Positions 15,155 through 64,000 of a stretch of DNA of 64,000 nt are shown here, in pieces. The notes beneath the pieces were generated by a model. It did no database searches and was not told the origin of the DNA. It worked only from the letters and a program-made list of their open reading frames with translations. This DNA comes from a virus. Its lineage: Duplodnaviria; Heunggongvirae; Uroviricota; Caudoviricetes. The stretch is from the IMG/VR virus record IMGVR_UViG_3300028797_000094, positions 102,524 through 166,523 of that record; one strand, written 5' to 3'. Position numbers and translations under genes: made by a program. How positions within the stretch are numbered: the stretch's first letter is position 1; every line of letters begins with the position of its first letter.

Positions 15155-17032
15155 ATGGAAAACTTTACTGATGCATTAGTTAATGACAATATTATAGTAG
15201 CAGGTGAACCGCTTGACTTATCTAAATGCCGAGCAATTCAGACTGATGTTAAAGACATTAGAGGTGAATATGAAACTAACTACTGTATATTATATAGTCA
15301 AACAAGAGATGCTGAGCCAATATTAACAAGAGTTCAAATAAGAACTTTAATAATTAAAGAAGTAGATGGTAGACATTTTGCTCTTGGTAAGCAAGGTAGA
15401 AAAACTATGCATTTGCCAGGTGGTGGCTATGATGGAGCTAAAGATAATGGCGACCCTTGTAATACTGCTAAACGTGAAGCCTGAGAAGAATTTAATTATA
15501 ATTTAACTAATGTAAAAGACTTACATTTATATTCTTGAAAATATAGAAAAGATAAATGGGTAGAACAACATGTTAAAAATGATGAAGATAAATGATATGG
15601 CTATTTAACTATTTTAATAGTTGCTGACTATAATGGTTTATCAGATAATAATAGACCAGATGAAAGAGGCCACTGAGAATGATATCCAATAGAAGTATTT
15701 AAGAAAAATGATTTTTATAATCAAGCATTATCCTCACTAAATTTGAATGAAGCTATTCATGCAAATAAGCCTGGTAGAGATGATTTAGGTGAAATTTCTT
15801 ATTTATGTGATTCATTACAAACACTTAGAATTATTCTTTCAACTATGGAAATTCAAAAAACATATGTTAAAGAAGTTAGATGAAAACCGCAAGATGCAAA
15901 AAGAGGATATTCATCAGATAATCATAAACAATATTCTTTATCAACATCTACTAATTTAACTGGGCATGCTAAACGTAGACCTGAAAGATGAGGTTTTGGT
16001 GTTATATTAGATGGACATAGATTATCTCAATACTATAATTTAGTTCCATATAATCATGCTTATTATAAATTACCAGACCAATATATTACAAAAATAGTTA
16101 AATTAAAAGATGGTAGAGTTATTCTTAATATTAGTTATTATGGCAATCGTGAAGTACAAAATGGTGAATGACTTTATGACTATATTGTAGATTATATTGA
16201 TACTCATCCTAAATATAGTGAAGCAGCTAGAACACTAGATGACTATGTTGATTCAAAAAATCCAAGTAAATGAAAATATAGATGAAACTTATTTAAGCAT
16301 GATGATCGCTTTGCTAATATTACTCCAGATGAAATAGAAGATTTACGTTCTTTTTCGACAAATCCAATATCAAAAAATTGTCTACAACTTAAGAGACTTG
16401 ATAGACTTGATGACGTACTTGAACATTTAGCTAAATATTCAAATTTTAATGAAGAAGAAGAAAGAATTTGATTAGAAGATGAGCTATTAAACTTTGTGCA
16501 AATTCCACAAGATACTTTAGTTGGTGTTATTTTACCAAATTATTTTAAAGAAGACTACGATTTAAATAAACCTACAAATGTATATTTAGCTTGAATTAAA
16601 CAATTTGTAGCACAAAATAATTTAAAAGTTATTTGACATGAATATACACACAAAATTTATAAAAAAGAATTAGCAACTGGACAAGCTGAAGATGAAGAAC
16701 AAAGATTTAATGATTTGTTTAAAAGATTGTCTCCTGAAAGCATTGTAGACAGAGCTAAAGACTTAGTAAATAAAGTTAGTCTTAAAAAATATAGAGAAAT
16801 ACTACCAAAGGCACAAGTTGCAACAGCTATAGTTAAAAAAGCTATTAAAGCTTGTATGCAAGATCTAACTACTGAAAATTATGATGAAAAATATAAACAA
16901 GCTTTTGATATGATAGTAGATGATGCCTTTGATTGTAAGTTAAGTTATGATAAAAGTAGTTTAATAAATAATACTAGTTTAAAACATTTATTTAACTATT
17001 ATGTTCCAGATCCTCCAGCAGAAAATAATTAA
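15155..17032 (+). CDS. 626-aa late protein translated with TGA=Trp (~15 in-frame TGA); N-terminal Nudix-like motif
   Basis: Track ORFs 15155..15484 and 16715..17032 share a frame; the intervening 1.2 kb has only TGA stops in that frame; GGYDGAKDNGDPCNTAKREAWEEF approximates the Nudix box; late promoter box at 15115-15126. Confidence 0.6.
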
Positions 17033-17116
17033 AATTCCAACAATAATAATCAGCTAAATTATTTAGAGAATGCTCTATTGTATTCTTAAAATAATGTAGA
17101 GGAGAGACTGCAAATT

Positions 17117-17341
17117 ATGAATGGCGAGTTTAGACGTGATCAAATTTGTACGACTTGAACTCAGGAACAGTGAAATGCGATGTGCAAAGCCGCGCAGAGC
17201 GGACAAAAAACGCCTGAGATTGAAAGTTGGAATAATCTTTATAATACTGTAGTTTCGAAATCTGCAGATATTGTAAAAGAGTATAATGATAATTATAATA
17301 AAACGAGTTTTCCAAATCTTGCGCTAGGAGGTAATGCATAA
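17117..17341 (+). CDS. hypothetical 74-aa protein (2 TGA=Trp)
   Basis: RBS GAGGAGAG; stop overlaps the next ATG (TAATG); an antisense ORF of similar length exists, so the call is uncertain. Confidence 0.35.
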
Positions 17342-17550
17342 TGATTACGCCAGTAAATGAACGTACATATGAATTTCGTGGCTTAAGCAGCGATGCAAAG
17401 CCTACTAAGAAAGATAGACCACTTCTTGGAAATGGTTCTGTATTCGTAGAGATGGATACATTAAAAGTATTCCTTTATGATGAAGAACATGACAAGTGGA
17501 TTGATTGAACAACAGGTCCTACAATTCCTTCTCCACAGAATGGTAACTAA
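17341..17550 (+). CDS. hypothetical 69-aa protein (1 TGA=Trp)
   Basis: Translationally coupled to the upstream gene; followed by RBS AAGGAGG of the next gene. Confidence 0.4.
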
Positions 17551-17568
17551 TAAGGAGGTAAGTATTAT

Positions 17569-18054
17569 ATGTTAGATATAACTACTTATATCCTTGCTAG
17601 ACGATCTGCTTCAATTATTGCCCAACAAGCAGTTGAAGAAATTGAGCCTGAAGTTATAATTGAAGAATCATCAGGAACCTTACCACCTGATGTATTAGCA
17701 AAAATTGTTGGAGCGAATGCTGCTTATATTAAATTAGAAAATAAAATTTATAGATTAAGCAGAATAGAAACTAATAACTATAAGTTTATCAATTCTTATA
17801 CTGATGGCTCAGGGCAAGTTGTTAGTATGATAGAATTAGATATAGATAAAACGTCAGGTGAATTTACAACTAAACCTTTAATTATTCAAGGTTCATCAGT
17901 TGCAGATTTAGAAAGACGTTTAGAAGAACATATTAATGATAATAATATTCACGTGTCTGAAAATGACAGAGCATACTGGAATAATAAAGTCTCTGCCGAG
18001 GTAATTGAAATAGCTCAGGGTGAATATGATTATAAATTACATTTAAAAAAATAA
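17569..18054 (+). CDS. hypothetical late protein
   Basis: ORF in track; RBS AAGGAGG. Confidence 0.55.
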   Translation: MLDITTYILARRSASIIAQQAVEEIEPEVIIEESSGTLPPDVLAKIVGANAAYIKLENKIYRLSRIETNNYKFINSYTDGSGQVVSMIELDIDKTSGEFTTKPLIIQGSSVADLERRLEEHINDNNIHVSENDRAYWNNKVSAEVIEIAQGEYDYKLHLKK

Positions 18055-18077
18055 AAGAATAGGAGAGATTATTTATT

Positions 18078-19367
18078 ATGCCACTTTACATTTCCCAAAT
18101 TAAATTACCAAATGATGAAAATACCTATTATATTAAAGACTCCGAAGCGAGAGATTTAATTGCACAGATTCAAGGTGGAGCTTTAGTATTTGTTAAGTCA
18201 GTAGACGCTGCTTCAACTCCTTATGGTGTTCAATGAAATGATCACGGAACTACTATTACAGGTACTTTAGTAGCTAGTTCTAGCACAGAAGGTAAAATTT
18301 ATCTAGTACCACAATCAACTGGAGCTGGTAAAGATATTTTTGCTGAATATGTTACTGTTACTACAGGTGGTTCTGGAACAGAACAAGATCCTTATGTATA
18401 TGCATGAGAAAAATTAGGTGATACTGAAATCGATTTTAGTGCTTTAGGTGCATTAGCTTATGTTGATAGTATTACTTTAAATAAGCAAACAGATTCAGTT
18501 TTAGGTGCAGATACTACATTTACAGCTGCTGCAAGTTCTGTTACATTTACTGGTGGAACAGATGATACATTTGTTAAATCATATCCTGGAACTACAAGTA
18601 AATTAGAAACTACATCTATTAAAGGTGTTGGTGCAAGTGATGTTACATTTAATGCTGTTGATGGAACTCCTGGTACTGTTACTGCTACTAATACAGTATT
18701 TGGTACAGATACTACTGCTAGTAAAGTTGTTACAACTTCTAAGACTGCAACTAATTTAGTATTAGGTACAGCTACTACTGCTTCTAAAGCTACTGCTGAT
18801 ACTGCTGTTGCTTTAGCAAAAGCTGCTGCAGCTGCAACTAATGTTTCTTATATTGGTAATGCAAATACATCTAGTGTTCTTGAAACTGCATCAGTATCTG
18901 GTGAAGTATTAACATTTGGCTCAGCTGCTGTTGCTCAAAGTTCAGTAACAGGTACTAACGGTACTGAAACTATTACACCTTATACATTTACTGATGTAAC
19001 TGTTCCAGTTGTTACAAGCAATACTGAAGTTACTTTTGACGCTGTAAGTTCTGCTACAGATGTTACTGTTCCAGTTGTTTCTAGTAATGCTGCAGTTACA
19101 GCTTCTGAAGCAATTACAATTGAACCAGTTACTGCTGCAACAAGTGCTGCAAATGCAATTACAGTTGCTACAGGTTTATTAGATTCGGCAGATACTGTTG
19201 GTGCTACAGTTATGACAGGTTTAGGCACTGCTGTTACTGCAACTGCTGTTACAGGCTTAGGTACAGCTGAGGCTGCTGCTCAAACAATTACAGTTGGTAC
19301 TAATGACCAAGTTACTGCTTTAACAAGTGCAACTGATTTAACAGTTACTCCACATAGCAATAACTAA
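18078..19367 (+). CDS. fibre-like T/A/V-rich protein with HxH motif; paralog of 60105..61976 (TGA=Trp used)
   Basis: RBS AGGAGAG; shares DSFVKSYPGTTSKLETTSIKGV, TITPYTFTDVTVPVV and GAHTHTVTG blocks with 60105..61976; followed by bidirectional terminator. Confidence 0.6.
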
Positions 19368-19390
19368 TAATTAAAAAGTAATAAAGCAAT

Positions 19391-19424
19391 AAAAAAAGAC
19401 TAGATTTAATTCTAGTCTTTTTTA
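19391..19424. terminator. bidirectional terminator between convergent genes: AGACTAGATTTAATTCTAGTCT flanked by A-run and T-run
   Basis: Perfect 8-bp dyad with A7 on one side and T6 on the other. Confidence 0.65.
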
Positions 19425-19433
19425 TTTTACTCA

Positions 19434-22400
19434 TTAGAATGTATGAGTATCGTTTGTTGTCGCACCAGCTACTCTAATAACATCATTAATGTTAAAAGTC
19501 ATAGCTGTAAATATTGCAATGTTATTTGATACTTGAGCTGTTTCAGTAAGAGTATTATTTACATATAAATAAATTACTCCATTATCATCATCATTTGTAT
19601 AACATTTAATTTGTCTACTTGTTTTCTTAGTATAATCTTTTCCGCAAATATGAACAAATTTACTTGTTGGATTTCACCAAGCTTTATACAAATAGAATGT
19701 GTCTTTCTTTGTAGTATGGTCTCTTTCTACTAAACCTTTATCATTTAAGTATTTTAAATTTTCATTAGTTGAAGTAGTTTCACCATCTAAACAAATAGTA
19801 TATCCTTCACTTCTACTTGATACAGCAAAGTCGAATAATACTCACTGTGCTGTATAAATAAGTTGTGGATAATTTTTAATTGCAGCTATATGACCTTCAT
19901 GCAATCACATTTGATATTCAATATCATGTCGAGGATTATTACCTCTTGTAGTAGTTGATAGTGGAGTATCAGAATGACAACGTTGAGTTCCACCACAACC
20001 ATATTCAGATAATGCCATTGGTTTAGTTTGAGCATTTGAATAACCTAAACAAGTATTAATTCTACTAGATGGATTATTAGAATTTTGGTCAATATATCAA
20101 CCAACATATAAGTTTTGTCCAATATAATCAACATTTGGATAATTAAATGTTCCTAAACCATTTGGATAGCTATGACTTACAACATAACCAATATATCTTG
20201 AAGTATCATAACTTCTAATTAAAGCTGTATAAGTTTCAATTTGAGTTTTAGCAAAAGCAGCATCATCTGTTGTAATTTCATTTGCAAGTCCCCAGAAAAC
20301 AATAGATGGATGATTATAATGTTGTAATACCATATCTGTTATTTGAGAACTTAAATGAGTATAATAATCATTAGACATTGTTGATTGAGCTTTATTAACC
20401 CAAGGAACTTCTGTTTGAACAATAATACCTAATTCATCACACATATCATAGAATTTACGAGGATGTGGATAGTGAGCTGTTCTAATAAAATTACAACCTA
20501 ATTCATCAATAATATCAAAGTCATTTTCAATATCTTGTTCTGTTAATGCATTAGCTTTATAATCTATATCTTGGTGCATACAAACACCTCTTAAATAATA
20601 TGGTTGTCCATTTAGTAAGAAGCCTGTATAAGTTTCACCTTGAATAACACTTGAATTATTAAATACATAATCATAATATCTAATACCATAAGGTCTAGTA
20701 GCTGTAAATGTTTTAGTTTGTCCACTATAAATATCAAGAGTTATATCATATAAATGTGGATCGGCTTTACCATTTCAAAGATGTGGATTAGAAATAGTTA
20801 CATTAAATGTAATAGTTCCACTACCTGTTTGAGTATCAGTATAATGATAAGTTCCATCATCAATAGTTAAAGTTACAGTTCCAGAAGTTGGAATTGATGT
20901 TGTTATAGTAAGTGCTGCAGAAGCAGATGTTGCTGTACAGTTTATTCTAAAGCCATCATAACCATATTCTATAGCTGGAAGTATTGCACCAGTAATAACT
21001 TGAACATCGCCAAGAGTTGCATTAAAGTTAAAATCACCAGCAGCTGGAGCTAAAGTATTTCTTGTTGTATTATTTAAGATAACTTTTAAAGTATTATCAC
21101 CAACAGTAATATAATTAGTTATATCAACAGTAAATGAATTATAACCACCTCAATGAGTAGTTACTAATGTATTATTCATATAAATTTCTGCTGATTGGTC
21201 TGCATGATCAAATCATAAATAAGTTGGTTGAAGAGTTTCAATTTCAATTACTTTTGTAAATACTCAGTTGTTTCCTTTAGCATAGCCAGATGAATGTCCA
21301 TCAATAGCATTAACTGAGAATGGTAAAGTAATATTTTGTCCAGCATATCTTCAAGATCCATCTTCTGGTTGAGGTTCTTCACCATCATTATAAGTTACCC
21401 AGCTAGTAGGAATACCAGAAGTACCAATAGACCAAGAATTAGCATTTGCATGTTTAATAAATGTACCAGCAGAAGCAACTTTATTTACCCAACCAGATAA
21501 ACAGTTAGTAGTTCCAAAGCCAGCAGTTGCTAAGCATCGAATATAATTTAGATTACTACATTGAGTAAACATATAACCATAACATTCATTAACAAGTGTA
21601 GGAGCTTCTAAGTCTGGAGCTTCTGAAATAAGACATTTTTCAAACATATACCAATAACAACCTGTTGCAAGAGTAGTTGCTGGTAAAGCTGGAGCTTCCA
21701 CTAAATTAGGTGCCAAACTAAACATAGCACGATAACAGTAGTTAGTTAATGTTGTTGCAGGTAACACTAAGTTTTTAGCAGATACAACTTTAGATTGCTT
21801 AAATAATGAACAAAAGTTATAGGTGCCAGTAAGAGTATTATTTCCAACAAAATTATCCCCATAAACTAAACTCATGATATTACCTTCAATATCAAATGTA
21901 GCAGTTCCACCATCAAAACCAGAGTAGTCTGATTTACTTCCTGCATATGTATTATTTGAGCCTCTGAATCTTATAACATCACCTGCTGAAACAGAAATTG
22001 TTGCAGGAGTTGTTTTAACAGCAGTTATTGAAGTTCAAGCACCATTATTTTTACTATATTCAATTGTTCTAGCATAATTTGAACCATATGCTTGTCAGCC
22101 AATAGTACCAGCAGTTTTTACTTTGAAAGTTAAATAATCTTGTGAGTAGTCATGTTGAGGATCATAAATACAGTTTCTCATAACAACTTCACTAGTATCA
22201 TTTGATAATTCTGAATAAGTTTCTACAACAGTTGTTGCAAATATTTGAATTGGAGCATTATAAATAGCATATGCACCAGATTGACCTAATCTATAATAAA
22301 TGGTTGCATTTTGTGTTTCACAAGTAAGAGTAATAATTTCACCATTAAATGTAATCATTGGTTTCTTTAAGCCTGTATATACACAAGTTTCAGTAACTGT

Positions 22401-24224
22401 GCCTGATCTTAAACCATCTATTTCTGAATAAGCTTCAACAATTGTATCATCTGTAATGGCAAATTGTCCAGTATATAAACTAAAATTGCCACTTTCATTT
22501 AATCTATAATATGTGTCAGCTCCGGTTTCATTTGTAGTGATAGAAACATATCTACCAGTACAAGAAATAGTTGGAGGTAATACATTTGTTAATTTTACAA
22601 TTGAGAAATTTTTAATTGTAATATTTGAGTATCTATATGGATCACCATTAGCATCCATTGCGTAACCTAAACAAACCTTCAAATATTTTAAATCTTCAAT
22701 ATCTGGGAATTTATTTGAGGCTGTAAAAATAACAGCACCAGTTCTCATATTTTGACAGATAAAGTTGTTATTTGGAAGTGTTGGGTCATAAGTTATTTTT
22801 AATACATATTCTGCAGTATTATTAGTCATTGCAGTTGGGTTAATTGTAGTATTAGTATTACTACCTGTTGCAAATTGAGTACCTAAAATAACATATTTAT
22901 TAGTTCCAGTTTGTCTTATTTGAAAGCCATACCATGGAGATGGTGTAGCTCTTTTTGCAGTTAAAATATTATGGTGATTTTCATCTTGGTTTGCTGGCTG
23001 ATCTAAGAAATTAATTACAAAGTCAATATCGCAGATAAAGCCTCTTGTTGGGTCAAAAGCATAGTACTCTGTATTAATACCATTTTCAATTTCTTTACCT
23101 TCACCACCAGAACCTGATGTATCAATTTCATAACCTGTAACTACAGGATCGCCATTTTCATCATATTCGATTTCTTGAGTAGAACTATTTCCTGATGTAT
23201 CAACAGCATTATTAGTTGTTGAAGTTGGATCACCGTTTGCATCATAATTATTTGTTTGACTTGTACTAGAGCCATCTGTATTTTCAACAGTTGTACTATC
23301 TGAACTACCACTAACATCACCATTTTCATCATAATTTGTAGTAGTAGTTTCAGTAGTTACAGCACCAGTTTCCTGGTCTGGGGCAGAAACTTCAGTACTT
23401 GATTCAGTACTAGTACCATCAGCATTATTAGTAACTGTATTAGTCTCACTAGAACCATCGGCATTTGTCTGTGTTTCAGTAGTTTCGTTTGAACCATCTT
23501 GGTTTACAGTTATTGTAGTAGTTGTACTTGAACCATCTTGGTTTGTTGTTGTTTCTTCAGTTGTAGTACTAGTTGAACCGTCTTCATTAGTTGTTTGTGA
23601 AGTAGTTGTTTCAGTTGTAGCGCCAGTTTCTGGGTCTGTTGTAGTAGTTGTAGTTGTAGTTGTTACTGAGCCGTCTTCATTAACTTCAGTAGTGGTTGAT
23701 GAATTAGCTTCATAATATAAAACAATTTCTTTAGTTGCAGTTTGATTTTGATAAACTGCTTGTAGTGTAATAGTACCAGTTGCTAAAATTGTAATAGCAC
23801 CAGTATTATCAATTGTTGCATAATTATTACCACTTGTGATACTTCATGTTGGAGTAACTACAGTTGAATTATATCTTGCAATAGCATTTCCAGTAGTTCC
23901 AGTAATTGTATCAGCACATTCAATATTTAATTGATTATCATAAGAAACAGTTATATCAATTAGTTCAGTTTCTTCTTCATATTCACATTGAATTGTAATA
24001 TTTTCACTTACGACACCTTCATTAATAGTAACTTTACCAGTGCTAGGATTTAAAGAAACATAAGAAGCACCATTCATTAAAGACCATGTACCATTAACAG
24101 TTTGTCCATCATATTTACATGTACAATAAAAATATTTACCAGTAAAAGTTGAATCAGCAATTATTTCAAGATTATGTTCAGTTACGAGTACAATACTTAA
24201 TAATCTTCTTCTAATTATTCCCAT
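19434..24224 (-). CDS. 1596-aa structural protein (tail fibre/tailspike-like) with GH2-family glycoside hydrolase domain, Thr-rich mucin-like linker and BspA-like Cys-containing repeats; TGA=Trp
   Basis: Track minus ORFs 20097..20579, 21351..21875, 22095..22829 and 23844..24224 are all in one frame and separated only by TGA. GH2 signatures: CNFIRTAHYPHP, SIVFWGLANE, PHLWNGKADPHLYDITL. RBS TAGGAGG precedes the ATG at 24224. Confidence 0.65.
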
Positions 24225-24232
24225 ACTGCCTC

Positions 24233-24793: not shown

Positions 24794-24845
24794 AATTTTC
24801 TCCTTTTTTCCTTTCAAAATTTTAATTTAAAAATAATTTTCTATA

Positions 24846-24857: not shown

Positions 24858-24864
24858 TTTTTAT

Positions 24865-55089: not shown

Positions 55090-55099
55090 GGAGCTAATT

Positions 55100-55335: not shown

Positions 55336-55347
55336 ATTGCTAAATTA
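55336..55347 (+). promoter_or_regulatory. late-promoter box (variant ATTGCTAAATTA)
   Basis: As above. Confidence 0.5.
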
Positions 55348-55389
55348 TTTAGTAGATATTCAAAATATATTAAAGGAGAATATTCTAAG

Positions 55390-56040
55390 ATGGCAGAAAT
55401 TAAAACAATTCAATTTAAACGTGGTCGTAAAGCTGTTTTAGAAGCTAAACTTAAAGCAGGTGAACTTGGTGTTTTACTTGCTGGTGAACCTGCTTGAGAA
55501 ACAGATTTAGGTGGTTTAAAAATTGGTGATGGTGTTAATGCCTATGCTGATTTACCTTATATCACTGGCAGTGGTGGAGGCCAAGACAGTCGTTTTGTTA
55601 TAAATGATCCACTTGCTAATCAAGTATTATTATATGATAGTACATTAGGAAAATGAGTAAATAAAGATTTATCTGATGATAATAGTATTATTTATTTAGC
55701 TCAACAAGGTTTAACTCTTAAGGGCTATGCAAATGCTTCACAAGGACAAATGCTTGTTAAAGATAATACTAATGGTTTAACTTGGGTAAATCCAGTATCA
55801 GACCAAGTATTACAAACATATGCAGCAGCAGCTGAAGCTTCTAAAAATGAAGCAGCAGCACAAGCAATTGTAGCTGGTAATAAAGCTGTTGAGGCATCAA
55901 CAAGTGCAACACAAGCAAATCAAATTAATCAACAAACTATTGCTTGATTTAATAACAAATTCTGGTGAGGCACTTTAGCAGAATATAATGAATTAGAATC
56001 TATTGACCCAGGTACATTCTATTTTATTACAGTAAGCTAA
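55390..56040 (+). CDS. tail-fibre-like protein with N-terminal phage fibre motif (TGA=Trp)
   Basis: Late box 55336-55347; RBS AAAGGAGAAT; TIQFKRGRKAVLEAKLKAGELGVLLAGEPAWETDLGGLKIGDGVNAYADLPYI is the widespread fibre/hyaluronidase N-terminal motif. Confidence 0.55.
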
Positions 56041-56056
56041 TTTTGAGGTGATTACA

Positions 56057-56341
56057 ATGGCAAAAGTTGTATTACATCCAATTAGAGATAATCAATTAAT
56101 GATTAATAATAAGGAATTTTTTGGACTAAATGTTTCAAAAGTAATTGTTGGAGTAGAAAATTCAGAAAGAACTGAATTATTAACTGATCCAAATACTGGG
56201 TTAAATTATAGCAGAACAGCTGTTGAAGGACAAGAAATCTATAATATTTCATCACAAAAACATCATCCTTGATTTATTTTAGATTTAGAAACTGGTTCAA
56301 GAGGCTGATATCCTGGTAAACAACCAGAAGATAATGAATAA
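56057..56341 (+). CDS. hypothetical late protein (TGA=Trp)
   Basis: RBS GAGGTGATTACA-ATG; reads through two TGA to TAA at 56339. Confidence 0.45.
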
Positions 56342-56369
56342 ATTAAAAGAATAGGAGAAAGTAAATAAA

Positions 56370-59048
56370 ATGGCAAATAACAATCATTTTAATTTAACAT
56401 TAGACACTGTAGCACCAACCGGTTCTATTGCCCGTCCAAATCACTATGTAAAAGATAATACTCAAAATTTGACTATTGGCTATACTGTTGGTGATGCTAT
56501 ATTAATGAAAGTTTGATTTAATGGTAATGCTATCGGAACTGAAAGTGATACAGAATATGGTGCAGCAAACTGAGAAGCAGTTTCTCAAACAAAAGCTACA
56601 GATTTTAGTACTGATGGTACTTATTATTACCATGTACAATTTATGGATAGTGTAAATAATAAATCAGCTATTTATGATACTGCTGAAATTATTTATGACC
56701 GCACTGCACCAGTTGTTAATAGTTTAACTCTTACAGATCCAACAACTGGAAGTCATATTAGAACAAAGAGCACAACTATTAATTGGTCTTTTGCTTATAC
56801 TGAAGTATATCCAGCTCGTTATGTAATTACTGCAACTGATATGGCAACTAATATTGATGTTACTGGAAATATTCCTGCATCACCAGTTAATGGCACATTA
56901 ACATTTGATCAAGGTGCATTAGATGGCTCAAAAACTGTAACTGTTACATTATATGATGAAGCTGGCAATGTTTCTACTGCAGTTTCTCAAACAATTACAT
57001 TAGATACTCAATTAGATGTTCCAGTTATTACTGTTACTAATATTCCTGAACAAGGTGAAGAACCTATAACTATTGCAAACAATTCTTATATTAATTATCA
57101 TGGTGTTAGAGTTAATGTAACTGATACTGATACAGGTGTTGTTAAATATAGAATTTATGAAGAAATTTCAGGACAAACTCCACCAGCATATGAAACACAA
57201 ACTGCTGGCACTTTAGATGAAACTGATGATTTAACATTAAGTAATAATGATGGCGTTAAGACTATTAAAGTTGATGTTGAAGATGATTCTGGAAATACTG
57301 CTTCTGCAACATTTACTATTACTATTGATACAGTAGTTCCTGTTGTTGATATTACTTCAACTACAAGTGTTATTTCTTCACAATCTGGCTATACTACAGC
57401 ACAATTTGATTTAACAGGTACAGATGCAACTGCTGGTGTTAAAGGTTATACAATTTCATGTAATAATACTGTTATAGCTAATGCTAATACAGCTGTTCCT
57501 GCCACTTTTGATTTAACAAAAGCAATTGCTGGTTCTGCTATGATTGAAGGTAGCAATGATATTACATTAACAGTATTTGATAATGCAGGTAATCAAGCTT
57601 CTGATACAACAACTTTAATTTATGATAATACTGCTCCAACTATTACAATTGGTGCTTTACCTGGAACAAGTAATGGTTGATATAATGCTCCATTTGCAGT
57701 TCCACTAACACTTAGTGATGCAAGATTAGATGGTTTTTATATTTGAGTAAATAATACTGAAGTTGATTCTGATATTACAGGTCATTTAAAACGTACTCCT
57801 TCAGGAACATCTGTTGACCCACAAAATATTGAAGGTTTTGATAACTTAGCAGACAATGCTACTTGTTATGTACATGTAGTTGCTATTGATACAGTTGGTA
57901 ATAGTGCTAATGCATCAGCAACATTTAGTTATGATGATACAGCTCCAACTTTAACTTCTGTAATATTTAGTGCATCTGCTTATAATAGTACTTCTGCTTC
58001 ATTAACAATTACTGCAAGTGATGCAACTTCACAATTAGATAAAATGCAAGTAGTTGGCGATATTACTAATGGTACAGCAAGTGGTGACTGAGAAAATTAT
58101 TCTAGTACACGTGCTGTTACATTAACAACTGGTGATGGAAATAAAACTGTTACAGTTTATGTAAAAGATACAGCTGGTAATGTTTCAAGTGCTGTTCAAG
58201 CTACTTGTGAGCTAGATATGGCTAATCCAATAATTATTATTACATTATTTGAAGCTGATGGAGTTACTCCAAAACCAGCAGATTCACCATTAGCAACATT
58301 TGTTGCACATATTCAAGTTGGTGACGATACTGCACAAGCAACAGGTGATGTAAAATATAAAGTATTTGGTGATTATACAATTGGTAGTCAATCTTCACAA
58401 GGAACTCCTGAACCTGCAGAATATATTGATTTCGTACCAGATCAAGGACAATTATATTATACTTTAACTGGTATTTGTACTTCTAATATTACAGGTCGTG
58501 AAAATAAAGTTATTACTGTTAAAGCTTTAGATAATGCTGGAAATACTAATCAAGGTACTGCATCATTCTATTATGATACAAAAGTTCCTGAAGTAAGTGT
58601 TACAGGTATAGATTATCAAGTAATTTCTAAAGCTCATACACTTAGATATGAAGGTATTGTTGCTACAACAAAATATGCAGATGAAATGCATTTTACAATT
58701 GTACCTGATGAAGCTATTATTGCTTATAAAGTTTGTGCATATCTTGATGCTGCTGATTCTGCTTTAAATTATCCAACAAGTGGAACACAAGAAGAAAAGA
58801 ATACTTGAGTAGAGGCACAAGTTGCTATTCCAAATACTGCTGGTTCAATTCATATGAGTGGATCTGCAAGTTCAGCTGCTGATATTGAATGTATGATTAA
58901 AGGCGCTGACTATGAAACTGCATTAGTTGCTCGTGGAGCTGTTGCAGGTTCAACTGCTGAAGGTGCTCATATTGTTGTAGTTTATGTAAAAGACTTAGCT
59001 GGTACATGGTCAGCAATTGCTGATTATACAGTAGTTAATGAAGGATAA
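56370..59048 (+). CDS. 892-aa Ig-like-repeat structural protein (TGA=Trp)
   Basis: RBS AGGAGAAAGTAAATAAA-ATG; track ORFs 56643, 58218 and 58854 share the frame; recurring D-R/N-T-A-P-V/T repeat boundaries typical of bacterial Ig-like domains. Confidence 0.6.
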
Positions 59049-59093
59049 TAAATAAGCTTTAATTAGCTTATCTATTGTGAAAGGTGATTATAT

Positions 59094-59582
59094 ATGACAG
59101 ATTTTGTAGATCTAGATTATAGAGAATACTCAACACCAGAAATTAATTATAAATCAATCAAAATAAATAATGTTGATGTTGCTTTGAGTGGCACTGCAAA
59201 TGTATCATTTCAATCACCTTATAATAGAATTGATATTGTAATGCGACCCATAGAGCATACACCAAGTTATTATGAAGTTAGAATTACAAAAGAAAATGAA
59301 GCATATGATATAGGTTTAGGAAATTTAGCTTATATGAATCAAAGTGTTCCACTTAATGCTGATACTTCTTTTTCTATAAATGTTAATTCTACAAATTTTA
59401 ATAAGGGTGATGGTTTATATAGAATTAGTTTATATGCAAAAAGTAGCGTTGATGGTAGTTGAGATGTTACTTATATGTTATTTGGTTTAAATGAATCAGA
59501 ACCATTTATGCCAAGTGACTCAGATGACTTTGAAGTATTGACTATCAGAGACATACCAAATAATAGCGAGGAGACAGAATAA
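59094..59582 (+). CDS. hypothetical late protein (TGA=Trp)
   Basis: RBS AAAGGTGA; track ORF extends through one TGA to TAA at 59580. Confidence 0.5.
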
Positions 59583-59584
59583 AT

Positions 59585-59884
59585 ATGGCAAATTTTGTTT
59601 CAAAACATACAGGGGCTCAAATTGAAGCCGCATTAGATAAAGCAGCCGAATTAGATTTCACTTATGTAACTTCTGAAACTATTGGTGGAAAAGTTTATAA
59701 AGTTTTTTATAAAGTTAGACCAATTTCAGGAAATGAAGGTAATCAGGTTTATGGTACTGCTTTTCATCCAGATACTGGTGAACAAATGGTAGTATATAAT
59801 GATAAAGGAACTTGTTCAATTAGAAAAGCAAGCGACCCAAACACTATTTCCACTAGTGAAGTTGAGAATTTATTTAATAATTAA
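59585..59884 (+). CDS. hypothetical late protein
   Basis: ORF in track. Confidence 0.5.
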   Translation: MANFVSKHTGAQIEAALDKAAELDFTYVTSETIGGKVYKVFYKVRPISGNEGNQVYGTAFHPDTGEQMVVYNDKGTCSIRKASDPNTISTSEVENLFNN

Positions 59885-59901
59885 AAAGGAGTTAGTAAAA
59901 A

Positions 59902-60102
59902 ATGCCAGACAACACAAAAATTGAAAGAATTAAAATCGGCTCAGTAACACATGAAATTGTTGATGCGACTGCTTTGCATGAAGTTAAAACTATTAATGGT
60001 GCCGCAATTAATGGTAGTGGTAATGTTACATTATCTGATATTGGTGTTACAAGTATTTCTGATACTGAAATTACAAATTTATTTGAAGGGAGCGGTAATT
60101 AA
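59902..60102 (+). CDS. small late protein of the KIxIGS family
   Basis: ORF in track; RBS AAAGGAG. Confidence 0.45.
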   Translation: MPDNTKIERIKIGSVTHEIVDATALHEVKTINGAAINGSGNVTLSDIGVTSISDTEITNLFEGSGN

Positions 60103-60104
60103 TT

Positions 60105-61976
60105 ATGGCAACAACAGTTAAAAAATATTTAGATCTTGAAGGTTTAGAAACCTTAGTCAGTGAAATTAAGTCTGAAGATGCTAAGAAGGTAGACAAATTA
60201 TCTAGTGATCAAACACATAGCTCTGCTTTATATAAAATTGCAACAAATGCACAAGGACAAGTTATTAGTGCAACTGCTGTTGCAAAAGCTGATATTACTG
60301 CTTTACAAATTCCTGGTGAAGATACAAACCAAAAAGTTAAAGCAGACAGTGTAACATTTGGTAATAATGATGTTATTGATATTGTTGGTGGAGATAATAT
60401 TAGTGTTACAGGACTTGCTTCTGGAACAGGCGCTCCAAAAATTACTATTGCTTATACTGGTGCTGCAACAGATCATAACCAAACAGTTAAATCTGGAAGT
60501 GTTACTTTTGGTGCAGATGAAATTATAAATATTAAAGCTGATACTACTTCAGGCAATCCAATTACTGTTACTGGTAATGCTACAAATAAAGAAATTACTA
60601 TTAAACATGGTACAACAACTGCTGCAAGTGCTGCTGCTGTTAAAGTAGGTAAAGATGAATGAGGTCATGTTGTTTTAGGTAGTCAAATTCAATATAGTGA
60701 AATTGGTGGAACTCCAACTATTGGTGATGCTACTTTAACTATTCAAGCTAATGGTACTTCTAAAGGCACATTTAAAGCTAATGCTACAACTGATGCAACT
60801 ATTAATATTACTGCTGCTGATTTAGGCTTAGAAAGTGCAATGCATTTCAAAGGTAAATTTGATAGTCTTCCTGCAGTTACTAATTATAGTGCTGGTGATG
60901 TAGTTCTTGTTGGTACAAAAGAATATGTATTAAATGAAGTTTCAGGAACTAAATCATGAGTTGAACTTGGCGATGAAGGCTCACATGCATTAAAGACTAT
61001 TACTATCACTGGTACTAATGGTTTAACAGGTGGTGGTACTTTAGAAGCAAATAGAACTATTTCACACAGTACTTATAATTCTGCTACTGCTGCTGCAATT
61101 GCAGTTGGTCGTGATGAATATGGTCATGTAGTAATTGGTTCTGCTTTAGGAACTGCTGATGCTGGTGCACATACACATACAGTTACTGGTTCAGTTTCTG
61201 TTGCTAATACAGTTACCGCTAAATCAGACAAATATCTAAAAGTTGCTACAACTAATAGTGATTCATTTGTTAAATCATATTCACCAACATCAAGTAAATT
61301 AGCTACAACTTCTATTGCTGGTGTAAGCGGTTCAACAACTGCTTCAAAAGCTACTGCTGGAACAGCTGTAGTTTATGGTACTGCTGATGTTGGTACTGCA
61401 GTTACTTATGGTACTGCTGATGTTGACACCGCTGTTACTTATGGTACAGCTGATCGTGCTTCTTCTGCTACAACAGTTATAACAGCTTGTTCTTTAAATG
61501 GAACTGCTTATTCTGCAAGTTATGATAGTACAAATAGTTGTTTAGAATTAACTGCTTTAACTCTTACAGCTACTCCAGGTAGTGTTTATGAAGCTGTTAA
61601 TTCAAATAAGACTTTAACTCCTGCAAAAGCTTCAACTAAGACTTTAACTCCTGCAAAAGCTGCTGATACAACTCGTACAATTACTCCATATACATTTTCT
61701 AATGTTACTGTTCCAGTTGCTGCTTCTGCAGTTACTGTTGCAACTGGTTCTTTAAGTGATAGTGGCTCTGGTGCAAGTGTAGTAACTGGTTTAGGAACTC
61801 CTACAACTGGAACTGCTATTGGTAGTGTTTCAATTAGTGCTGAAGCTTCATCAAGTACTGGTGCTGTAGCATTTGTTCAATCAATTACAACTGGTAGTAC
61901 AAGTGCTAATTTAGCTGATGGTACTGCTGTAAGTGCTGGTACTCATAGCCATACAGTTACTGGTGGTTCACTATAG
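60105..61976 (+). CDS. fibre-like protein with HxH motifs (GAHTHTVTG, GTHSHTVTG); paralog of 18078..19367; TGA=Trp
   Basis: Track ORF 60105..60662 continues in frame through TGA to TAG at 61974; shares sequence blocks with 18078..19367. Confidence 0.6.
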
Positions 61977-62048
61977 TAATTATTTAGCTTAGAAATAAAG
62001 TTAAAGCAATCTTAATAGGTTGCTTTTTCTTTTTATAACTTATTTTTA

Positions 62049-62060
62049 TTTGCTAAATTA
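62049..62060 (+). promoter_or_regulatory. late-promoter box TTTGCTAAATTA
   Basis: As above. Confidence 0.55.
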
Positions 62061-62086
62061 ATTGATTATAAAAAGGAGAAACATTT

Positions 62087-62512
62087 ATGCCAAGAATGCC
62101 CCAATATAGAAAAGATAGTGTTAGTGAACAATATATTATTATTCCACAAAATATACCTACTCCAACACCAACACCAGAGCCTACTCCAGTAATTGGTGCA
62201 TATATTTATTTTTATAATGATAGTTATATTCCTAAAGAAATTGATAATAATTGAGCAAAAAATGAAATAAATTATTCAATTAAAGATACTGGTATTAAGC
62301 ATACTTATAGTACTATAAAAGATTCATACCTTGCTTTTGCCTACCCAAGTGAATTAGGTGAATTAAAACATATTTATCAAAATAAAGCACTTTTTGATTT
62401 ATTAGATAATTTTGAAATGAGCCTTGTTGAAAAAGATGGTATGAAATATTATTTATATTGCTTTAAAGATATAATTATTGCTGGTACTGACGAATTTGAA
62501 TTTTTATGATAA
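62087..62512 (+). CDS. hypothetical late protein with PTPTPTPEPTP linker (TGA=Trp)
   Basis: Late box 62049-62060; RBS AAAGGAGAAAC; ends in TGATAA, so the C-terminal residue is uncertain. Confidence 0.45.
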
Positions 62513-62526
62513 AGGAGATTTAATAA

Positions 62527-62892
62527 ATGGCAACTTATGTAAGATTTGGTGCAGGATTTAATATTACTACAAACTCAGCAATTGATAAAAGATTTGTATT
62601 ATCAAAAGCAGAAATGAAAGTTGCAAATCCTAATGGTTTACCAACAGTTTATTTTGCACTTTGTACAGATGACAAAAAAATGTATGTATATGATAAAAAT
62701 TCAGAAGCTGATGATGTAACTGGAAAATATCATCCACTTGAAGAATATCTTGATTTTACTACAGAAAAAGCAGAAGAACAACTTAATGAAGTTTTAAGTA
62801 ATTCTGAAACAATAACTGATATTCAAGACAGCATTGATGCTTTGACTGAAGAGATTGAAGAAATTAAAATGGATGGTGGAGAAATTGAATAA
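62527..62892 (+). CDS. hypothetical late protein
   Basis: ORF in track; RBS AAAGGAGA. Confidence 0.5.
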   Translation: MATYVRFGAGFNITTNSAIDKRFVLSKAEMKVANPNGLPTVYFALCTDDKKMYVYDKNSEADDVTGKYHPLEEYLDFTTEKAEEQLNEVLSNSETITDIQDSIDALTEEIEEIKMDGGEIE

Positions 62893-62902
62893 TTTTTAAC
62901 TA

Positions 62903-62930
62903 AGAGAGACTTTTATAGTTTCTCTTTTTT
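62903..62930 (+). terminator. terminator AGAGAGACTTTTATAGTTTCTCTTTTTT
   Basis: Dyad plus T-run. Confidence 0.6.
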
Positions 62931-62933
62931 ATT

Positions 62934-62945
62934 TTTTGCTAAATT
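62934..62945 (+). promoter_or_regulatory. late-promoter box TTTGCTAAATTA
   Basis: As above. Confidence 0.55.
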
Positions 62946-62999
62946 ATATGATTTGAAATGATAATCAATAAAACTTCTTGAAATGATAGGAGAGCATCT

Positions 63000-63209
63000 A
63001 TGAAAAAACAAAATGCAGTGATCAAGACCGATTTGGCCGAAAATTGAGAAAAAGCAAAGAATTACATTCCAGATCAATTTACGATTATTGTATATGAGTA
63101 TGAGGATGCTTCTCCTAAGATAAAAATTGGGGACGGCATCCATACAGTTGGAGACCTTCCCTTTTTAATTTCTGAAAAAGAAGTTATTGATAGTACATTA
63201 ATTTTATAG
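63000..63209 (+). CDS. small protein with KIKIGDGxHTVGDLPF fibre-repeat motif (1 TGA=Trp)
   Basis: Late box 62934-62945; RBS TAGGAGAG. Confidence 0.45.
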
Positions 63210-63220
63210 GAGGACTAATA

Positions 63221-63526
63221 GTGGCAAATAAAATTTCATTAGTAAAAATTGATAGTAATTTTTATCCAATTACACTTCCTTATATTGAATGTAATGCTGC
63301 AGCTGATGCTGTAAATAAAGGTTCTTATACAGTATCTGGTTTTACTGTTGAAGCTGGCGCACAAATACAAGTAAATTTTAAAAATGATAATACGACAGGT
63401 GCACCAACAATTACAATAAATAGTGTTGGAAAAACAATTGTTGGTTATGGCGTTTTTGCTGGCTCATTATTTAGTGCTGGTATTTTAACATTAATATATG
63501 ATGGAACATATTGAGTTATAAAATAG
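63221..63526 (+). CDS. small late protein, paralog of 63538.. (GTG start, 1 TGA=Trp)
   Basis: RBS ATAGGAGGACTAATA-GTG; shares ALPY..C......K......V.F.N.NT.AP motif with the next gene. Confidence 0.45.
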
Positions 63527-63537
63527 GAGAATAAAAT

Positions 63538-64000
63538 ATGGCAAATATTCAAAAAATTAAAATAGGAAGTAATACATATTCTGTCGCTCTACCTTATGGT
63601 ACTTGCTCTACAGCAGTTGGAACTAAAGTTAAAGCAGTTTCAATTAACAACTATCCAACGAGTGGATATGCTGCTGGCGATCAAATTGTAGTTTATTTTG
63701 AAAACGGCAATACTAATAGTGCTCCTCAATTATCAATAAATAGTGGTACAGGTTTAAATGTTTTAGCTTATACTAATGCTGGTACAAATGCTACTAATTG
63801 GCGAGCTGAAGCTGTTATTCATTTTACATTTAATGGTACTGCTTGAGTTATTAATAGTATTGGAGCTTTTGATTCAGCAACATGCACAGTTGCAGGCGGT
63901 GGATTAAGTAAAGGTACTGCTACAGGTGGCGCTTTGACAAAAGGCACTGCATCAGGCGGTGGACTTTCTGGTGGTGGATTAACAAAAGGAGCAGGTGAAG
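63538..64000 (+). CDS. late protein with Gly-rich (GGGLSKGTATGG...) repeats; partial, runs off the window end (TGA=Trp)
   Basis: RBS ATAGGAGAATAAAAT-ATG; track ORF extends through TGA at 63844. Confidence 0.45.

What the first reader, a model, noticed from the sequence alone, without database searches (positions are those of the whole stretch)
15155..64000. Late-gene-specific stop-codon recoding: TGA read as Trp only in genes downstream of the TTTGCTAAATTA promoter class
About 15 kb of early genes (145-15071) are tightly packed standard-code ORFs. They end mostly in TAA and, wherever I checked, encode Trp with TGG (for example all Trp in 11165..12280). In contrast, genes following the late box need TGA decoded as a sense codon to stay open. 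15155..17032 has ~15 in-frame TGA and 32621..33277 has 9; one frame is held with only TGA interruptions over 4.8 kb in 19434..24224 and 7.2 kb in 47836..55089. The identity is Trp, not Gly or Cys: in the papain-family peptidase 40502..41380 the invariant motif NSWGxxWG reads QWIVQNSWGQNWGYDG with every W encoded by TGA. Standard-code genes (nrdD, nrdG, ligase, methyltransferase, FNT channel, SPFH) are interleaved with recoded ones (32621.., 35649..). So this is per-gene recoding tied to temporal class, not a code-4 host. This matches the lytic-gene recoding described in some uncultivated gut phages (crAss-like and Lak-like lineages) and predicts a phage-supplied UGA decoder, the tRNA-like gene at 7523 being the candidate.
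Basis: partly seen in the sequence, partly recalled or inferred. Interest (0 to 1): 0.85.

Follow-up and report, generated by a model that had tools for sequence, protein, structure and literature searches.

The report
Late phage genes read TGA as tryptophan
This is part of a very large, uncultured rumen phage whose late (tail-fibre and lysis-type) genes spell tryptophan mostly with the stop codon TGA while its early and middle genes never do; this trick is already described for other gut phages, and the molecule that reads TGA was not found here.

Summary
Under code 4 the window gives full-length genes of up to 2,417 codons; under code 11 the longest is 737. Thirty genes behind the motif TTGCTAAATTA carry 118 in-frame TGA and 39 TGG. 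Forty-six early or middle genes carry 104 TGG and no internal TGA; one probably ends in TGA. TGA+TGG is 14.0 and 14.2 per 1,000 codons in the two classes, and off-frame TGA density is equal.

TGA means Trp. It sits on the conserved Trp of papain-family and GH2 structures. In orthologues of the 2,417-aa protein, 23 of 31 TGA align with TGG.

The motif is the only invariant block in the orthologous intergenic region of four relatives, one of which uses the standard code. The promoter class therefore appears older than the recoding, which rises as GC falls (orthologue: 0, 5, 11, 31 TGA).

The tRNA-like gene at 7523 has no UCA anticodon, only a 6-nt palindromic loop. No suppressor tRNA lies within 81 kb, and no RF1 or TrpRS domain appears among the 64 standard-code proteins scanned.

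Verdict: a clean new member of the known class of TGA-recoded large gut phages (Borges et al.). The promoter-level resolution is a modest addition. The decoder remains unidentified.

The parts
145..15071 (+). Early/middle standard-code block: about 31 genes with no internal TGA; Trp is always TGG. Gene 12362-12589 probably ends in a true TGA stop.
   Evidence: It continues at least 8.4 kb upstream in L001, where the roughly 18 genes beyond the window start hold no in-frame TGA.
397..8199 (+). Six early promoters of host sigma-A type: TTTACA, about 17 nt, TGnTATAAT. The -10 elements start at 429, 1671, 3014, 4638, 5237 and 8191. Each sits in a repeated intergenic cassette of about 90 nt.
3407..37942 (+). 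Second promoter class, tttatTGTATAATaatat, with no -35 element. Thirteen sites: 3407, 5251, 7286, 8913, 9479, 10379, 12324, 24865, 25815, 29473, 29836, 36533, 37935. All stand before standard-code genes.
7523..7609 (+). tRNA-like gene: 8-bp acceptor stem, normal D and T arms, anticodon arm GCCGA-CAAUUG-UCGGU (6-nt loop, no UCA) and an extra region of about 20 nt. Not a recognisable UGA suppressor.
   Evidence: the same slot holds tRNA-Thr(UGU) in L007, L011 and L096.
15115..19367 (+). Late unit 1: motif at 15115-15126. Genes (TGA count): 15155-17032 NUDIX-domain protein (13), 17117-17341 (2), 17341-17550 (1), 17569-18054 (0), 18078-19367 fibre-like (2).
19434..24857 (-). Late unit 2, minus strand: motif variant TTGGCTAAATTA at 24846-24857. 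Genes: 24233-24793 (no Trp) and 19434-24224, a 1,596-aa protein with a C-terminal GH2 domain (12 TGA, 9 TGG).
24865..32557 (+). Middle standard-code block, including DNA ligase (28138-29442) and an SPFH protein (31460-32557): 0 TGA, 35 TGG.
32586..33277 (+). Single-gene late cassette: motif at 32586, gene 32621-33277 (7 TGA, 1 TGG), lying between the SPFH gene and nrdD.
33388..35571 (+). nrdD, standard code (0 TGA, 3 TGG).
35600..36473 (+). Single-gene late cassette: motif at 35600, gene 35649-36473 (9 TGA, 2 TGG). A class-2 promoter at 36533 follows it.
36533..39376 (+). Standard-code block: FNT channel, nrdG, DNA methyltransferase and small genes (0 internal TGA).
39394..42542 (+). Late, lysis-like units: motifs at 39394 and 41444. 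Genes (TGA/TGG): 39424-39948 (3/1), 39961-40509 membrane protein with an HExxH motif (6/3), 40502-41380 papain-family peptidase (4/2), 41513-42151 protein with an N-terminal transmembrane helix (2/1), 42177-42542 protein with an N-terminal transmembrane helix (1/1).
42736..55318 (+). Late units with motifs at 42736 and 47389. Genes (TGA/TGG): 42784-43239 (no Trp), 43241-43780 (1/0), 43792-47337 (6/1), 47432-47818 (no Trp), 47836-55089, a 2,417-aa LRR-bearing fibre or adhesin (31/10), 55100-55318.
55336..64000 (+). Late units with motifs at 55336 (ATTGCTAAATTA), 62049 and 62935. Genes (TGA/TGG): Mtd_N/tail-tip protein 55390-56040 (4/2), 56057-56341 (2/0), 56370-59048 Ig-like repeat protein (6/2), 59094-59582 (1/0), 60105-61976 fibre-like (2/0), 62087-62512 (2/0), and others. 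The recoded module continues at least 8.9 kb beyond the window (L004: 18 TGA, 6 TGG).

Best explanation
The window is about 64 kb of a phage of at least roughly 200 kb, with low GC (30%), from a rumen sample, most likely virulent, infecting a bacterium that uses the standard code (probably a Firmicute). Its genes fall into three promoter classes. Genes behind host-type sigma-A promoters and behind the TGTATAAT class are written in the standard code. Genes behind the motif TTGCTAAATTA, which reads as an extended -10 element (TGcTAAATT), are fibre, adhesin, peptidase and membrane (lysis-like) genes, and they use UGA for about 75% of their tryptophans. These proteins can therefore be completed only after the infected cell has been converted to read UGA as Trp. 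Recoding thus adds a translational lock on top of late transcription. The converting factor is inferred to be a phage-encoded UGA suppressor tRNA charged by TrpRS, possibly helped by lowering RF2 activity. It is inferred to be encoded in standard code outside the 81 kb that could be read. On the evolutionary side, the promoter class came first. TGG-to-TGA changes then accumulated only in late genes, under strong AT pressure, once a decoder existed.

Shown here: the sense use of TGA, its Trp identity, the exact partition by motif, the conservation of the motif, and the graded recoding among relatives. Inferred: the timing (late), the promoter function of the motif, the host's code, and the nature of the decoder.
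For: **TGA is needed for long ORFs.**

**TGA means Trp.**
- Peptidase TGA codons 215, 221, 227 and 231 align with W of PDB 3ois and 5jt8.
- GH2 TGA codons 1150, 1376, 1461 and 1517 align with conserved W of 7kgz and 8ges.
- In orthologues at about 50% identity, 23, 19+4 and 18+6 of the 31 TGA align with TGG or TGA.
- TGA+TGG is 14.04 versus 14.16 per 1,000 codons in the two classes.

**Partition by promoter.**
- Late genes hold 118 TGA and 39 TGG. Standard genes hold no internal TGA and 104 TGG, with equal off-frame TGA density; p = 9e-34.
- All 11 intergenic late motifs are followed by units whose Trp-bearing genes carry in-frame TGA.
- All 19 sigma-A-type or TGTATAAT sites precede standard-code genes.

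**The motif is conserved.**
- It is the only invariant block in the orthologous intergenic region of four phages.
- It marks the same methyltransferase/55-aa gene boundary in L096.

**Standard-code host.**
- One early gene probably ends in TGA.
- Relative L093 uses TGA as a real stop in late genes that carry the same motif.
- Strong Shine-Dalgarno sites and TTTACA-17-TGnTATAAT promoters.
- The best ligase matches among cultured phages come from Geobacillus, Brevibacillus, Clostridioides and Bacillus phages.

**Competition with RF2.** Sense TGA is followed by T in 19% of cases, against 41% for late-gene TGG (p = 0.009).

**Gradient.** The orthologue holds 0, 5, 11 and 31 TGA. The three relatives' loci have 36, 33 and 33% GC and the whole window 30%.

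**Literature.** The same logic is described by Borges et al..
Against: - No suppressor tRNA was found in the window, in 8.4 kb upstream, in 8.9 kb downstream, or in about 21 kb of the closest relative.
- No RF1, PCRF or TrpRS domain was found among 64 standard-code proteins.
- 'Late' is inferred from gene type and motif only; there are no expression data.
- Most late proteins have no family hit.
- The partition is not absolute in a relative: L096 has one in-frame TGA, at codon 61, in a standard-class gene.
- Late genes still keep 25% TGG.
Confidence: 0.85

Rival explanations
1. The host itself uses code 4 (a Mycoplasma- or Spiroplasma-like bacterium), so TGA as Trp is simply the native code and nothing is switched.
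For: The genome has low GC (30%), and TGA is the majority Trp codon in 30 genes.
Against: - 46 window genes and 18 upstream genes use TGG only (104 versus 0 in the window) at the same Trp frequency, with normal off-frame TGA density.
- One early gene probably stops at TGA.
- A relative with the same late motif uses TGA as a stop.
- Early promoters, RBS and the nearest cultured-phage ligase homologues point to standard-code Firmicutes.
Confidence: 0.03
2. The recoding is real but not a regulatory device. It is a passive by-product: once a suppressor is present late in infection, AT-biased mutation (TGG to TGA) is tolerated in late genes and purged elsewhere.
For: - Graded series of 0, 5, 11 and 31 TGA in one orthologue as GC falls from 36 to 30%.
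- GC3 is only 9.0% in late genes against 14.9% in standard genes.
- The late motif is already present in the standard-code relative.
- The first TGA is often far from the 5' end of the gene.
Against: - This does not explain why the decoder should be delayed at all.
- Membrane and lysis-like genes carry a TGA within the first 4-37 codons.
- Borges et al. report a specific enrichment in lysis genes in other clades.
- The two views are not mutually exclusive.
Confidence: 0.35
3. UGA is decoded without a canonical suppressor tRNA. Candidates are the non-canonical tRNA-like RNA at 7523 inside a conserved non-coding transcript of about 950 nt, or manipulation of RF2 (an early ArfA-like 60-aa protein) combined with near-cognate reading by host tRNA-Trp(CCA).
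For: - No suppressor tRNA(UCA) lies within 81 kb.
- The odd tRNA-like gene sits in the early, standard-code region, within conserved processing flanks.
- A similar hairpin-plus-linker tRNA-like gene occurs in another rumen phage, L059.
- The protein at L001:2731-2913 matches the ArfA KGKGS[YF]xRK motif (24.3 bits, E = 2e-5).
- Sense TGA avoids the TGAT context.
- Borges et al. detect suppressors in only 35% of code-4 phages.
Against: - The tRNA-like loop (CAAUUG) cannot pair with UGA.
- The equally recoded closest relative has an ordinary tRNA-Thr in that slot.
- The ArfA match is below Pfam's cut-off and covers only the C-terminal motif. NCBIfam gives no hit and PHROGs only a weak one.
- About 130 kb or more of the genome is unseen, and a normal suppressor could lie there.
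Confidence: 0.1
4. The pattern is an artefact: an assembly chimera, pseudogenes, or frameshifted fragments wrongly joined by reading through TGA.
For: None found.
Against: - Identical sequence appears in independent assemblies (ENA ERZ27257203, ERZ27257207 and ERZ27256849, and Logan SRR10393135).
- Domains run continuously across TGA, with W in homologues.
- Orthologues in four other phages keep the same frame, with TGG at those sites.
Confidence: 0.01

Closest known systems
TGA-recoded (code 4) large gut phages of the Jade, Sapphire and Agate clades (Borges et al., bioRxiv 10.1101/2021.08.26.457843)
   Same: - Low GC and a genome of roughly 130-210 kb; animal-gut source; hosts predicted to use the standard code.
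[quoted passage not shown]
- Recoded modules scattered over the genome.
- Close relatives that use the standard code.
- TGA nearly unused as a stop.
- A suppressor tRNA is often not detectable.
   Different: - Clade membership could not be tested, because no terminase lies in the reachable sequence.
- No suppressor tRNA/TrpRS/RF1 operon was seen next to the lysis-like cassette here.
- Here the recoded set coincides exactly with one conserved promoter motif, down to single-gene cassettes. That paper does not analyse promoters (0 mentions).
TAG-recoded crAss-like and Lak phages
   Same: Stop-codon recoding restricted to late genes, in a phage whose host uses the standard code.
   Different: - Those phages mainly reassign TAG to Gln and infect Bacteroidetes.
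- This phage reassigns TGA to Trp.
- It has strong Shine-Dalgarno sites and sigma-A-type early promoters.
- The best cultured-phage ligase matches are Firmicutes phages.
Mycoplasma/Spiroplasma code 4 and their phages
   Same: UGA is read as Trp.
   Different: There the whole genome uses TGA. Here two of the three gene classes never do.
Temporal promoter classes of large virulent phages (T4 late promoter TATAAATA with gp55; the SPO1 sigma cascade) - from general knowledge
   Same: Distinct -10-like motifs without a -35 element mark later gene classes. Early genes use host-consensus promoters.
   Different: No phage sigma factor or RNA polymerase has been identified here. The coupling of one promoter class to a different genetic code is not a feature of T4 or SPO1.

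Membership tests
Stop-codon-recoded phage, TGA to Trp, late-gene restricted (Borges-type) | In-frame TGA is required for full-length genes | tested here: met
   Longest open frame 737 codons under code 11 and 2,418 under code 4; 118 in-frame TGA in 30 genes.
Stop-codon-recoded phage, TGA to Trp, late-gene restricted (Borges-type) | TGA positions align with Trp in homologues | tested here: met
   Papain-family and GH2 PDB alignments; 23 of 31 TGA align with TGG in an orthologue.
Stop-codon-recoded phage, TGA to Trp, late-gene restricted (Borges-type) | Recoding is present in structural and lysis genes and absent from early and replication genes | tested here: met
   0 internal TGA and 104 TGG in 46 genes including nrdD, nrdG and ligase; 118 TGA and 39 TGG in fibre, peptidase and membrane genes.
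Stop-codon-recoded phage, TGA to Trp, late-gene restricted (Borges-type) | The host uses the standard code | tested here: inconclusive
   The evidence is indirect only: TGA is avoided in early genes, one TGA stop is probable, a relative uses the standard code, and promoters, RBS and ligase homologues are Firmicute-like. There is no host assignment.
Stop-codon-recoded phage, TGA to Trp, late-gene restricted (Borges-type) | A phage-encoded suppressor tRNA(UCA) or other code-change genes (RF1, TrpRS) | tested here: not met
   None in the 81 kb that could be read. This feature is absent from 65% of published code-4 phages, so it does not strictly define the class.
Stop-codon-recoded phage, TGA to Trp, late-gene restricted (Borges-type) | Low GC, with TGA nearly abandoned as a stop codon | tested here: met
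   GC is 29.7%. Stop codons are 66 TAA, 9 TAG and at most 1 TGA.
Jade, Sapphire or Agate clade (terminase phylogeny) | Large terminase falls inside the named clade | not testable with these tools
   No terminase lies in the window or its flanks, and the clade sequences are not in the searchable collections. INPHARED gave no close hit.
Phage of a code-4 host | TGA is used as Trp in all gene classes | tested here: not met
Code 25 (TGA to Gly) phages of Absconditabacteria or Gracilibacteria | TGA aligns with Gly | tested here: not met
   TGA aligns with Trp or aromatic residues.
Selenocysteine recoding | Rare UGA at Cys/Sec positions, with a SECIS element and a tRNA-Sec | tested here: not met
   Up to 31 UGA per gene, aligned with Trp; no tRNA-Sec.
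UGA suppressor tRNA (for the gene at 7523-7609) | A 7-nt anticodon loop carrying UCA | tested here: not met
   The loop is CAAUUG (6 nt). ARAGORN reports 'tRNA-???', and the Rfam alignment shows a shortened loop.

The most novel reading that the evidence does not exclude
This phage lineage switches the cell to reading UGA as Trp without a canonical suppressor tRNA. It would use an unrecognised RNA (the anticodon-less tRNA-like gene embedded in a conserved early non-coding transcript of about 950 nt), or an RF2-directed protein such as the early ArfA-like peptide, or both. The conserved TTGCTAAATTA promoter class would then define the regulon that depends on that switch.
Probability: 0.1. Interest if true: 0.8.

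Novelty: new member of a known kind. Interest (0 to 1): 0.4.

Why it matters
- **Annotation.** Standard-code gene calling would shred more than half of this window into fragments. Code-4 calling is needed only for one promoter class.
- **A clean example.** Two genetic codes in one genome are split gene by gene along a conserved promoter motif. Relatives run from the standard code to 75% TGA.
- **An open question made testable.** Is late-gene recoding a timing lock or tolerated drift? Codon counts across this family, and TGA-to-TGG reversion if a host is found, would address it.
- **What the motif offers.** It gives a practical handle for predicting which genes depend on the code switch.
- **Still open.** The missing decoder remains the unsolved part. 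In the papers read here, only TAG reassignment had direct metaproteomic support.

Tried and rejected
**Close deposited relatives.** Megablast of 19 kb, and tblastn of lineage-specific proteins, against INPHARED phages found no close relative.

**tRNA and RNA searches.**
- ARAGORN at relaxed thresholds and with introns gave only noise inside coding regions.
- Rfam at gathering and at E-value thresholds, on the window and on the non-coding regions, found only the tRNA. There was no ROOL, GOLLD or group I intron hit.

**Other loci.**
- A viral-contig scan with protein 9519-10295, and one with the methyltransferase 13991-14878, returned nothing.
- The 80 nrdD loci are mostly other phage lineages. 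They hold tRNA arrays but no tRNA(UCA).
- A crude comparison of ORF coverage under codes 11, 4 and 15 did not discriminate between those loci and was dropped.
- Generalising the motif/TGA link across loci gave only 3 extra exact sites, all with TGA.

**Protein families.**
- PHROGs and Pfam left most late proteins unannotated.
- The ArfA-like hit could not be strengthened with PHROGs or NCBIfam.

**Readings rejected.** Code-4 host, code 25, selenocysteine, and frameshift or chimera artefact.

Full report

Yes. With TAA and TAG as the only stops, open frames of at least 100 codons cover 21,863 codons, the longest 2,418. With all three stops they cover 15,371 codons, the longest 737. A code-4 gene model gives a tightly packed map, almost all on the plus strand.

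- Thirty 'late' genes (11,179 codons) hold 118 in-frame TGA and 39 TGG.
- Forty-six other genes (7,697 codons) hold 104 TGG and five apparent TGA.
- Four of those five lie upstream of the real RBS and ATG. The fifth is seven codons before the end of gene 12362, and the next gene's ATG follows it, so it is most simply a true TGA stop.
- Fisher's test on TGA against TGG gives p = 9e-34.

Two controls argue against a compositional artefact. Off-frame TGA is equally frequent in both classes (81 and 83 per 1,000 codons). The sum TGA+TGG is the same (14.04 and 14.16 per 1,000 codons), which is what a one-for-one replacement of the Trp codon predicts.

The 4.8-kb frame at 19434-24224 is on the minus strand. 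Otherwise the description holds.

**2. What does TGA encode?**

Three independent lines say Trp.
- **Peptidase.** Gene 40502-41380 is a papain-family peptidase (Pfam PF00112, E = 2e-15). Its TGA codons 215, 221, 227 and 231 fall on the VGW, W-I and NSWG-x-x-WG tryptophans of PDB 3ois and 5jt8.
- **GH2 domain.** The C-terminal 640 residues of the 1,596-aa minus-strand protein match GH2 glucuronidases and galactosidases (E = 2e-71). TGA codons 1150, 1376, 1461 and 1517 align with the conserved W of 7kgz and 8ges. The remaining TGA sit at variable positions, often aromatic.
- **Orthologues.** I fetched orthologues of the 2,417-aa protein from four IMG/VR phages and aligned them codon by codon, at about 50% protein identity. 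Of the window's 31 TGA:
  - 23 align with TGG in L093;
  - 19 align with TGG and 4 with TGA in L092;
  - 18 align with TGG and 6 with TGA in L094.

Gly, Cys and Sec are excluded.

**3. Is it tied to a promoter class?**

Yes, exactly so within the window. There are three classes of intergenic signal.
- **Early class.** Six sites read TTTACA, about 17 nt, TGnTATAAT, between 429 and 8191. This is a textbook sigma-A promoter with an extended -10 element.
- **Second class.** Thirteen sites read tttatTGTATAATaatat, without a -35 element, at 3407-12324 and 24865-37935.
- **Late class.** Eleven intergenic sites read (t)TTGCTAAATTA. They usually follow a hairpin and T-run directly, and lie 18-57 nt before the ATG.

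Every transcription unit that starts at one of the 11 late sites contains Trp-bearing genes with in-frame TGA. Every first gene after the 19 other sites is in standard code. The motif can be read as an extended -10 variant, TGcTAAATT; that reading is my inference.

Two single-gene cassettes show the resolution. Gene 32621-33277 (7 TGA) lies between the SPFH gene and nrdD. Gene 35649-36473 (9 TGA) lies between nrdD and a TGTATAAT promoter at 36533, which restarts standard-code genes.

The motif behaves as a conserved functional element.
- In the orthologous intergenic region of four phages, whose flanking protein is only about 50% identical, TTGCTAAATTA is the only invariant block. The upstream hairpins differ in sequence.
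- In the closest relative (L096) a variant, TTAGCTAAATTA, marks the same boundary after the methyltransferase and the 55-aa gene. The next genes hold 3 and 2 TGA and no TGG.

'Promoter' and 'late' remain inferences from position and gene content. That content is fibre-like repeat proteins, Mtd_N and tail-tip domains, an LRR adhesin, a GH2 domain, the peptidase, an HExxH membrane protein, and two small proteins with N-terminal transmembrane helices.

**4. What is the element, and who is its host?**

- **Same phage elsewhere.** Exact-protein look-ups find this phage in three ENA assemblies and one Logan run. One contig is 120 kb and others fall in the 0.2-1 Mb bin.
- **Relatives.** They lie on contigs of 146-239 kb in sequence sets whose accessions I recognise, from memory, as rumen metagenomes; this was not checked. 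This is a huge phage lineage. It has no close deposited relative.
- **Extent of the blocks.** The standard-code block continues at least 8.4 kb upstream, and the recoded block at least 8.9 kb downstream.
- **Host.** There is no direct assignment. Consensus sigma-A promoters, strong AGGAG ribosome-binding sites, and ligase homologues that are closest, among cultured phages, to Geobacillus, Brevibacillus, Clostridioides and Bacillus phages (about 40% identity) point to Firmicutes.
- **A standard-code relative.** Relative L093 carries the same late motif. Its late genes have no internal TGA, and three of them end in TGA. Both the lineage's ancestral code and the cells it infects are therefore best taken as standard.

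**5. A graded series**

In the 2,417-aa orthologue the TGA/TGG counts are:

| Phage | TGA/TGG | GC of the locus |
|---|---|---|
| L093 | 0/45 | 36% |
| L092 | 5/34 | 33% |
| L094 | 11/28 | 33% |
| Window | 31/10 | 30% (whole window) |

Within the window, GC3 is 9.0% in late genes and 14.9% in the others. The promoter class therefore appears to predate the recoding. TGG-to-TGA replacement tracks AT pressure, but only where it is tolerated. This repeats, in another lineage, the Agate example of Borges et al.. It also keeps open the question of whether the recoding is a timing lock or tolerated drift.

**6. The decoder**

- The gene at 7523-7609 is a good tRNA-like fold (Rfam 47.5 bits, 8-bp acceptor stem, normal D and T arms).
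- Its anticodon arm, however, is a perfect palindrome, GCCGA-CAAUUG-UCGGU, with a 6-nt loop and no UCA. About 20 unpaired nucleotides follow it.
- It sits in conserved flanks that can base-pair with each other. In L007, L011 and L096 the same flanks hold an ordinary tRNA-Thr(UGU), and that phage is recoded too.

No other tRNA lies in the 81 kb that could be read. No RF1, PCRF or TrpRS domain appears among 64 standard-code proteins.

One hint suggests that RF2 still competes for these codons. Sense TGA is followed by T in 19% of cases, against 41% for TGG in the same genes (p = 0.009). From general knowledge, UGAU is a strong termination context.

The most likely decoder is still a suppressor tRNA encoded in the unseen part of the genome, at least about 130 kb. 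Borges et al. detect one in only 35% of code-4 phages.

**7. Comparison with what is known**

Late-gene-restricted TGA-to-Trp recoding in low-GC gut phages of standard-code hosts is published. So are scattered recoded modules and standard-code sister genomes. Large surveys of jumbo phages also list TGA recoding.

This window meets the defining sequence features that could be tested. The host's code is only inferred, and no code-change gene was found; that feature is also missing from most published cases. Clade membership (Jade, Sapphire or Agate) cannot be tested here.

What this analysis adds is modest:
- an exact coincidence of the recoded set with one conserved promoter motif, down to single genes;
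- the presence of that motif in a standard-code relative;
- the +4 context bias.

Borges et al. do not mention promoters at all, and a full-text search found no paper linking a late promoter to recoding.

One caveat applies. In L096 a standard-class gene has an in-frame TGA at codon 61, so the partition is not absolute across the family.

**8. Verdict**

This is a new member of a known kind, with moderate interest.

Noticed in passing
window 7268-8216 (also L007:425-1640, L011, L096): An ORF-free, GC-richer stretch of about 950 nt starts at a TGTATAAT promoter and carries the tRNA slot. Several blocks are conserved between the window and its closest relative: 'ggagtcaattcgaattatacggcctac' 5' of the tRNA, 'tattagtggttagcca..acgacgaataagatctttacaacacg.tctgttgaataagcgttggac', and 'caagaaaggtaagctcggccgttaaacctttacact'. 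The middle part is variable. Rfam finds only the tRNA. This is a candidate large non-coding RNA with an embedded tRNA. A gene with a GIY-YIG endonuclease domain follows at 8235-8879.
   Followed up: partly
window 7523-7609; L059:1151-1234; L068:17211-17289: tRNA-like genes have intact acceptor, D and T arms, but a short hairpin replaces the anticodon arm and a linker follows: a palindromic hairpin and about 20 nt in the window and L059, a weaker hairpin and about 10 nt in L068/L069. ARAGORN reports them as 'tRNA-???' with a 2-base anticodon. They recur in unrelated rumen phage contigs. Function unknown.
   Followed up: partly
window 2592-3054 and 3694-4709 (also 7955): Ten of the window's 12 copies of TTAGTGGT (2.05 expected) lie in three early ORF-free, GC-rich islands, all on the plus strand. 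Each copy starts a unit of about 85-130 nt made of internally repetitive, hairpin-prone sequence. This could be an array of small RNAs or iteron-like repeats.
   Followed up: partly
L001:2731-2913 (5.7 kb upstream of the window start): An early, standard-code 60-aa protein has the C-terminus KPKKGKGSFTRRKKHK, which matches the ArfA (RF2-recruiting ribosome rescue factor) motif. Pfam PF03889 scores 24.3 bits against a cut-off of 25.5 (E = 2e-5). A link to RF2 and UGA is speculative.
   Followed up: partly
window 370-449, 1616-1705, 2952-3058, 4567-4656, 5166-5268, 8130-8200: The early sigma-A-type promoters sit in a repeated cassette of about 90 nt. The cassette also holds a palindrome (a)tgaaagcg(c/t)tttcat about 45 nt upstream of the -35 element. 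It may be an operator or a processing site.
   Followed up: no
L096:8704-9177: In the closest relative, the homologue of standard-class gene 12606-13073 has an in-frame TGA at codon 61, inside a conserved region (the window has Lys there). The partition of recoding is therefore not absolute across the family.
   Followed up: partly
L068:15964-16035 and L069:9263-9334: A tRNA with anticodon UUA (an ochre, TAA suppressor) occurs in tRNA clusters of another nrdD-bearing rumen phage.
   Followed up: no
window 55390-56040: A late protein has an Mtd_N (major tropism determinant) N-terminal domain and a phage tail-tip C-terminal domain. Such proteins are typical targets of diversity-generating retroelements. 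No reverse transcriptase or template repeat was looked for.
   Followed up: no
window 31460-32557 and 36599-37279: The phage carries an SPFH/Band-7 protein and a formate/nitrite-transporter-family channel among its standard-code middle genes, next to nrdD and nrdG. The channel has a weak holin-family hit (E = 5e-4).
   Followed up: no
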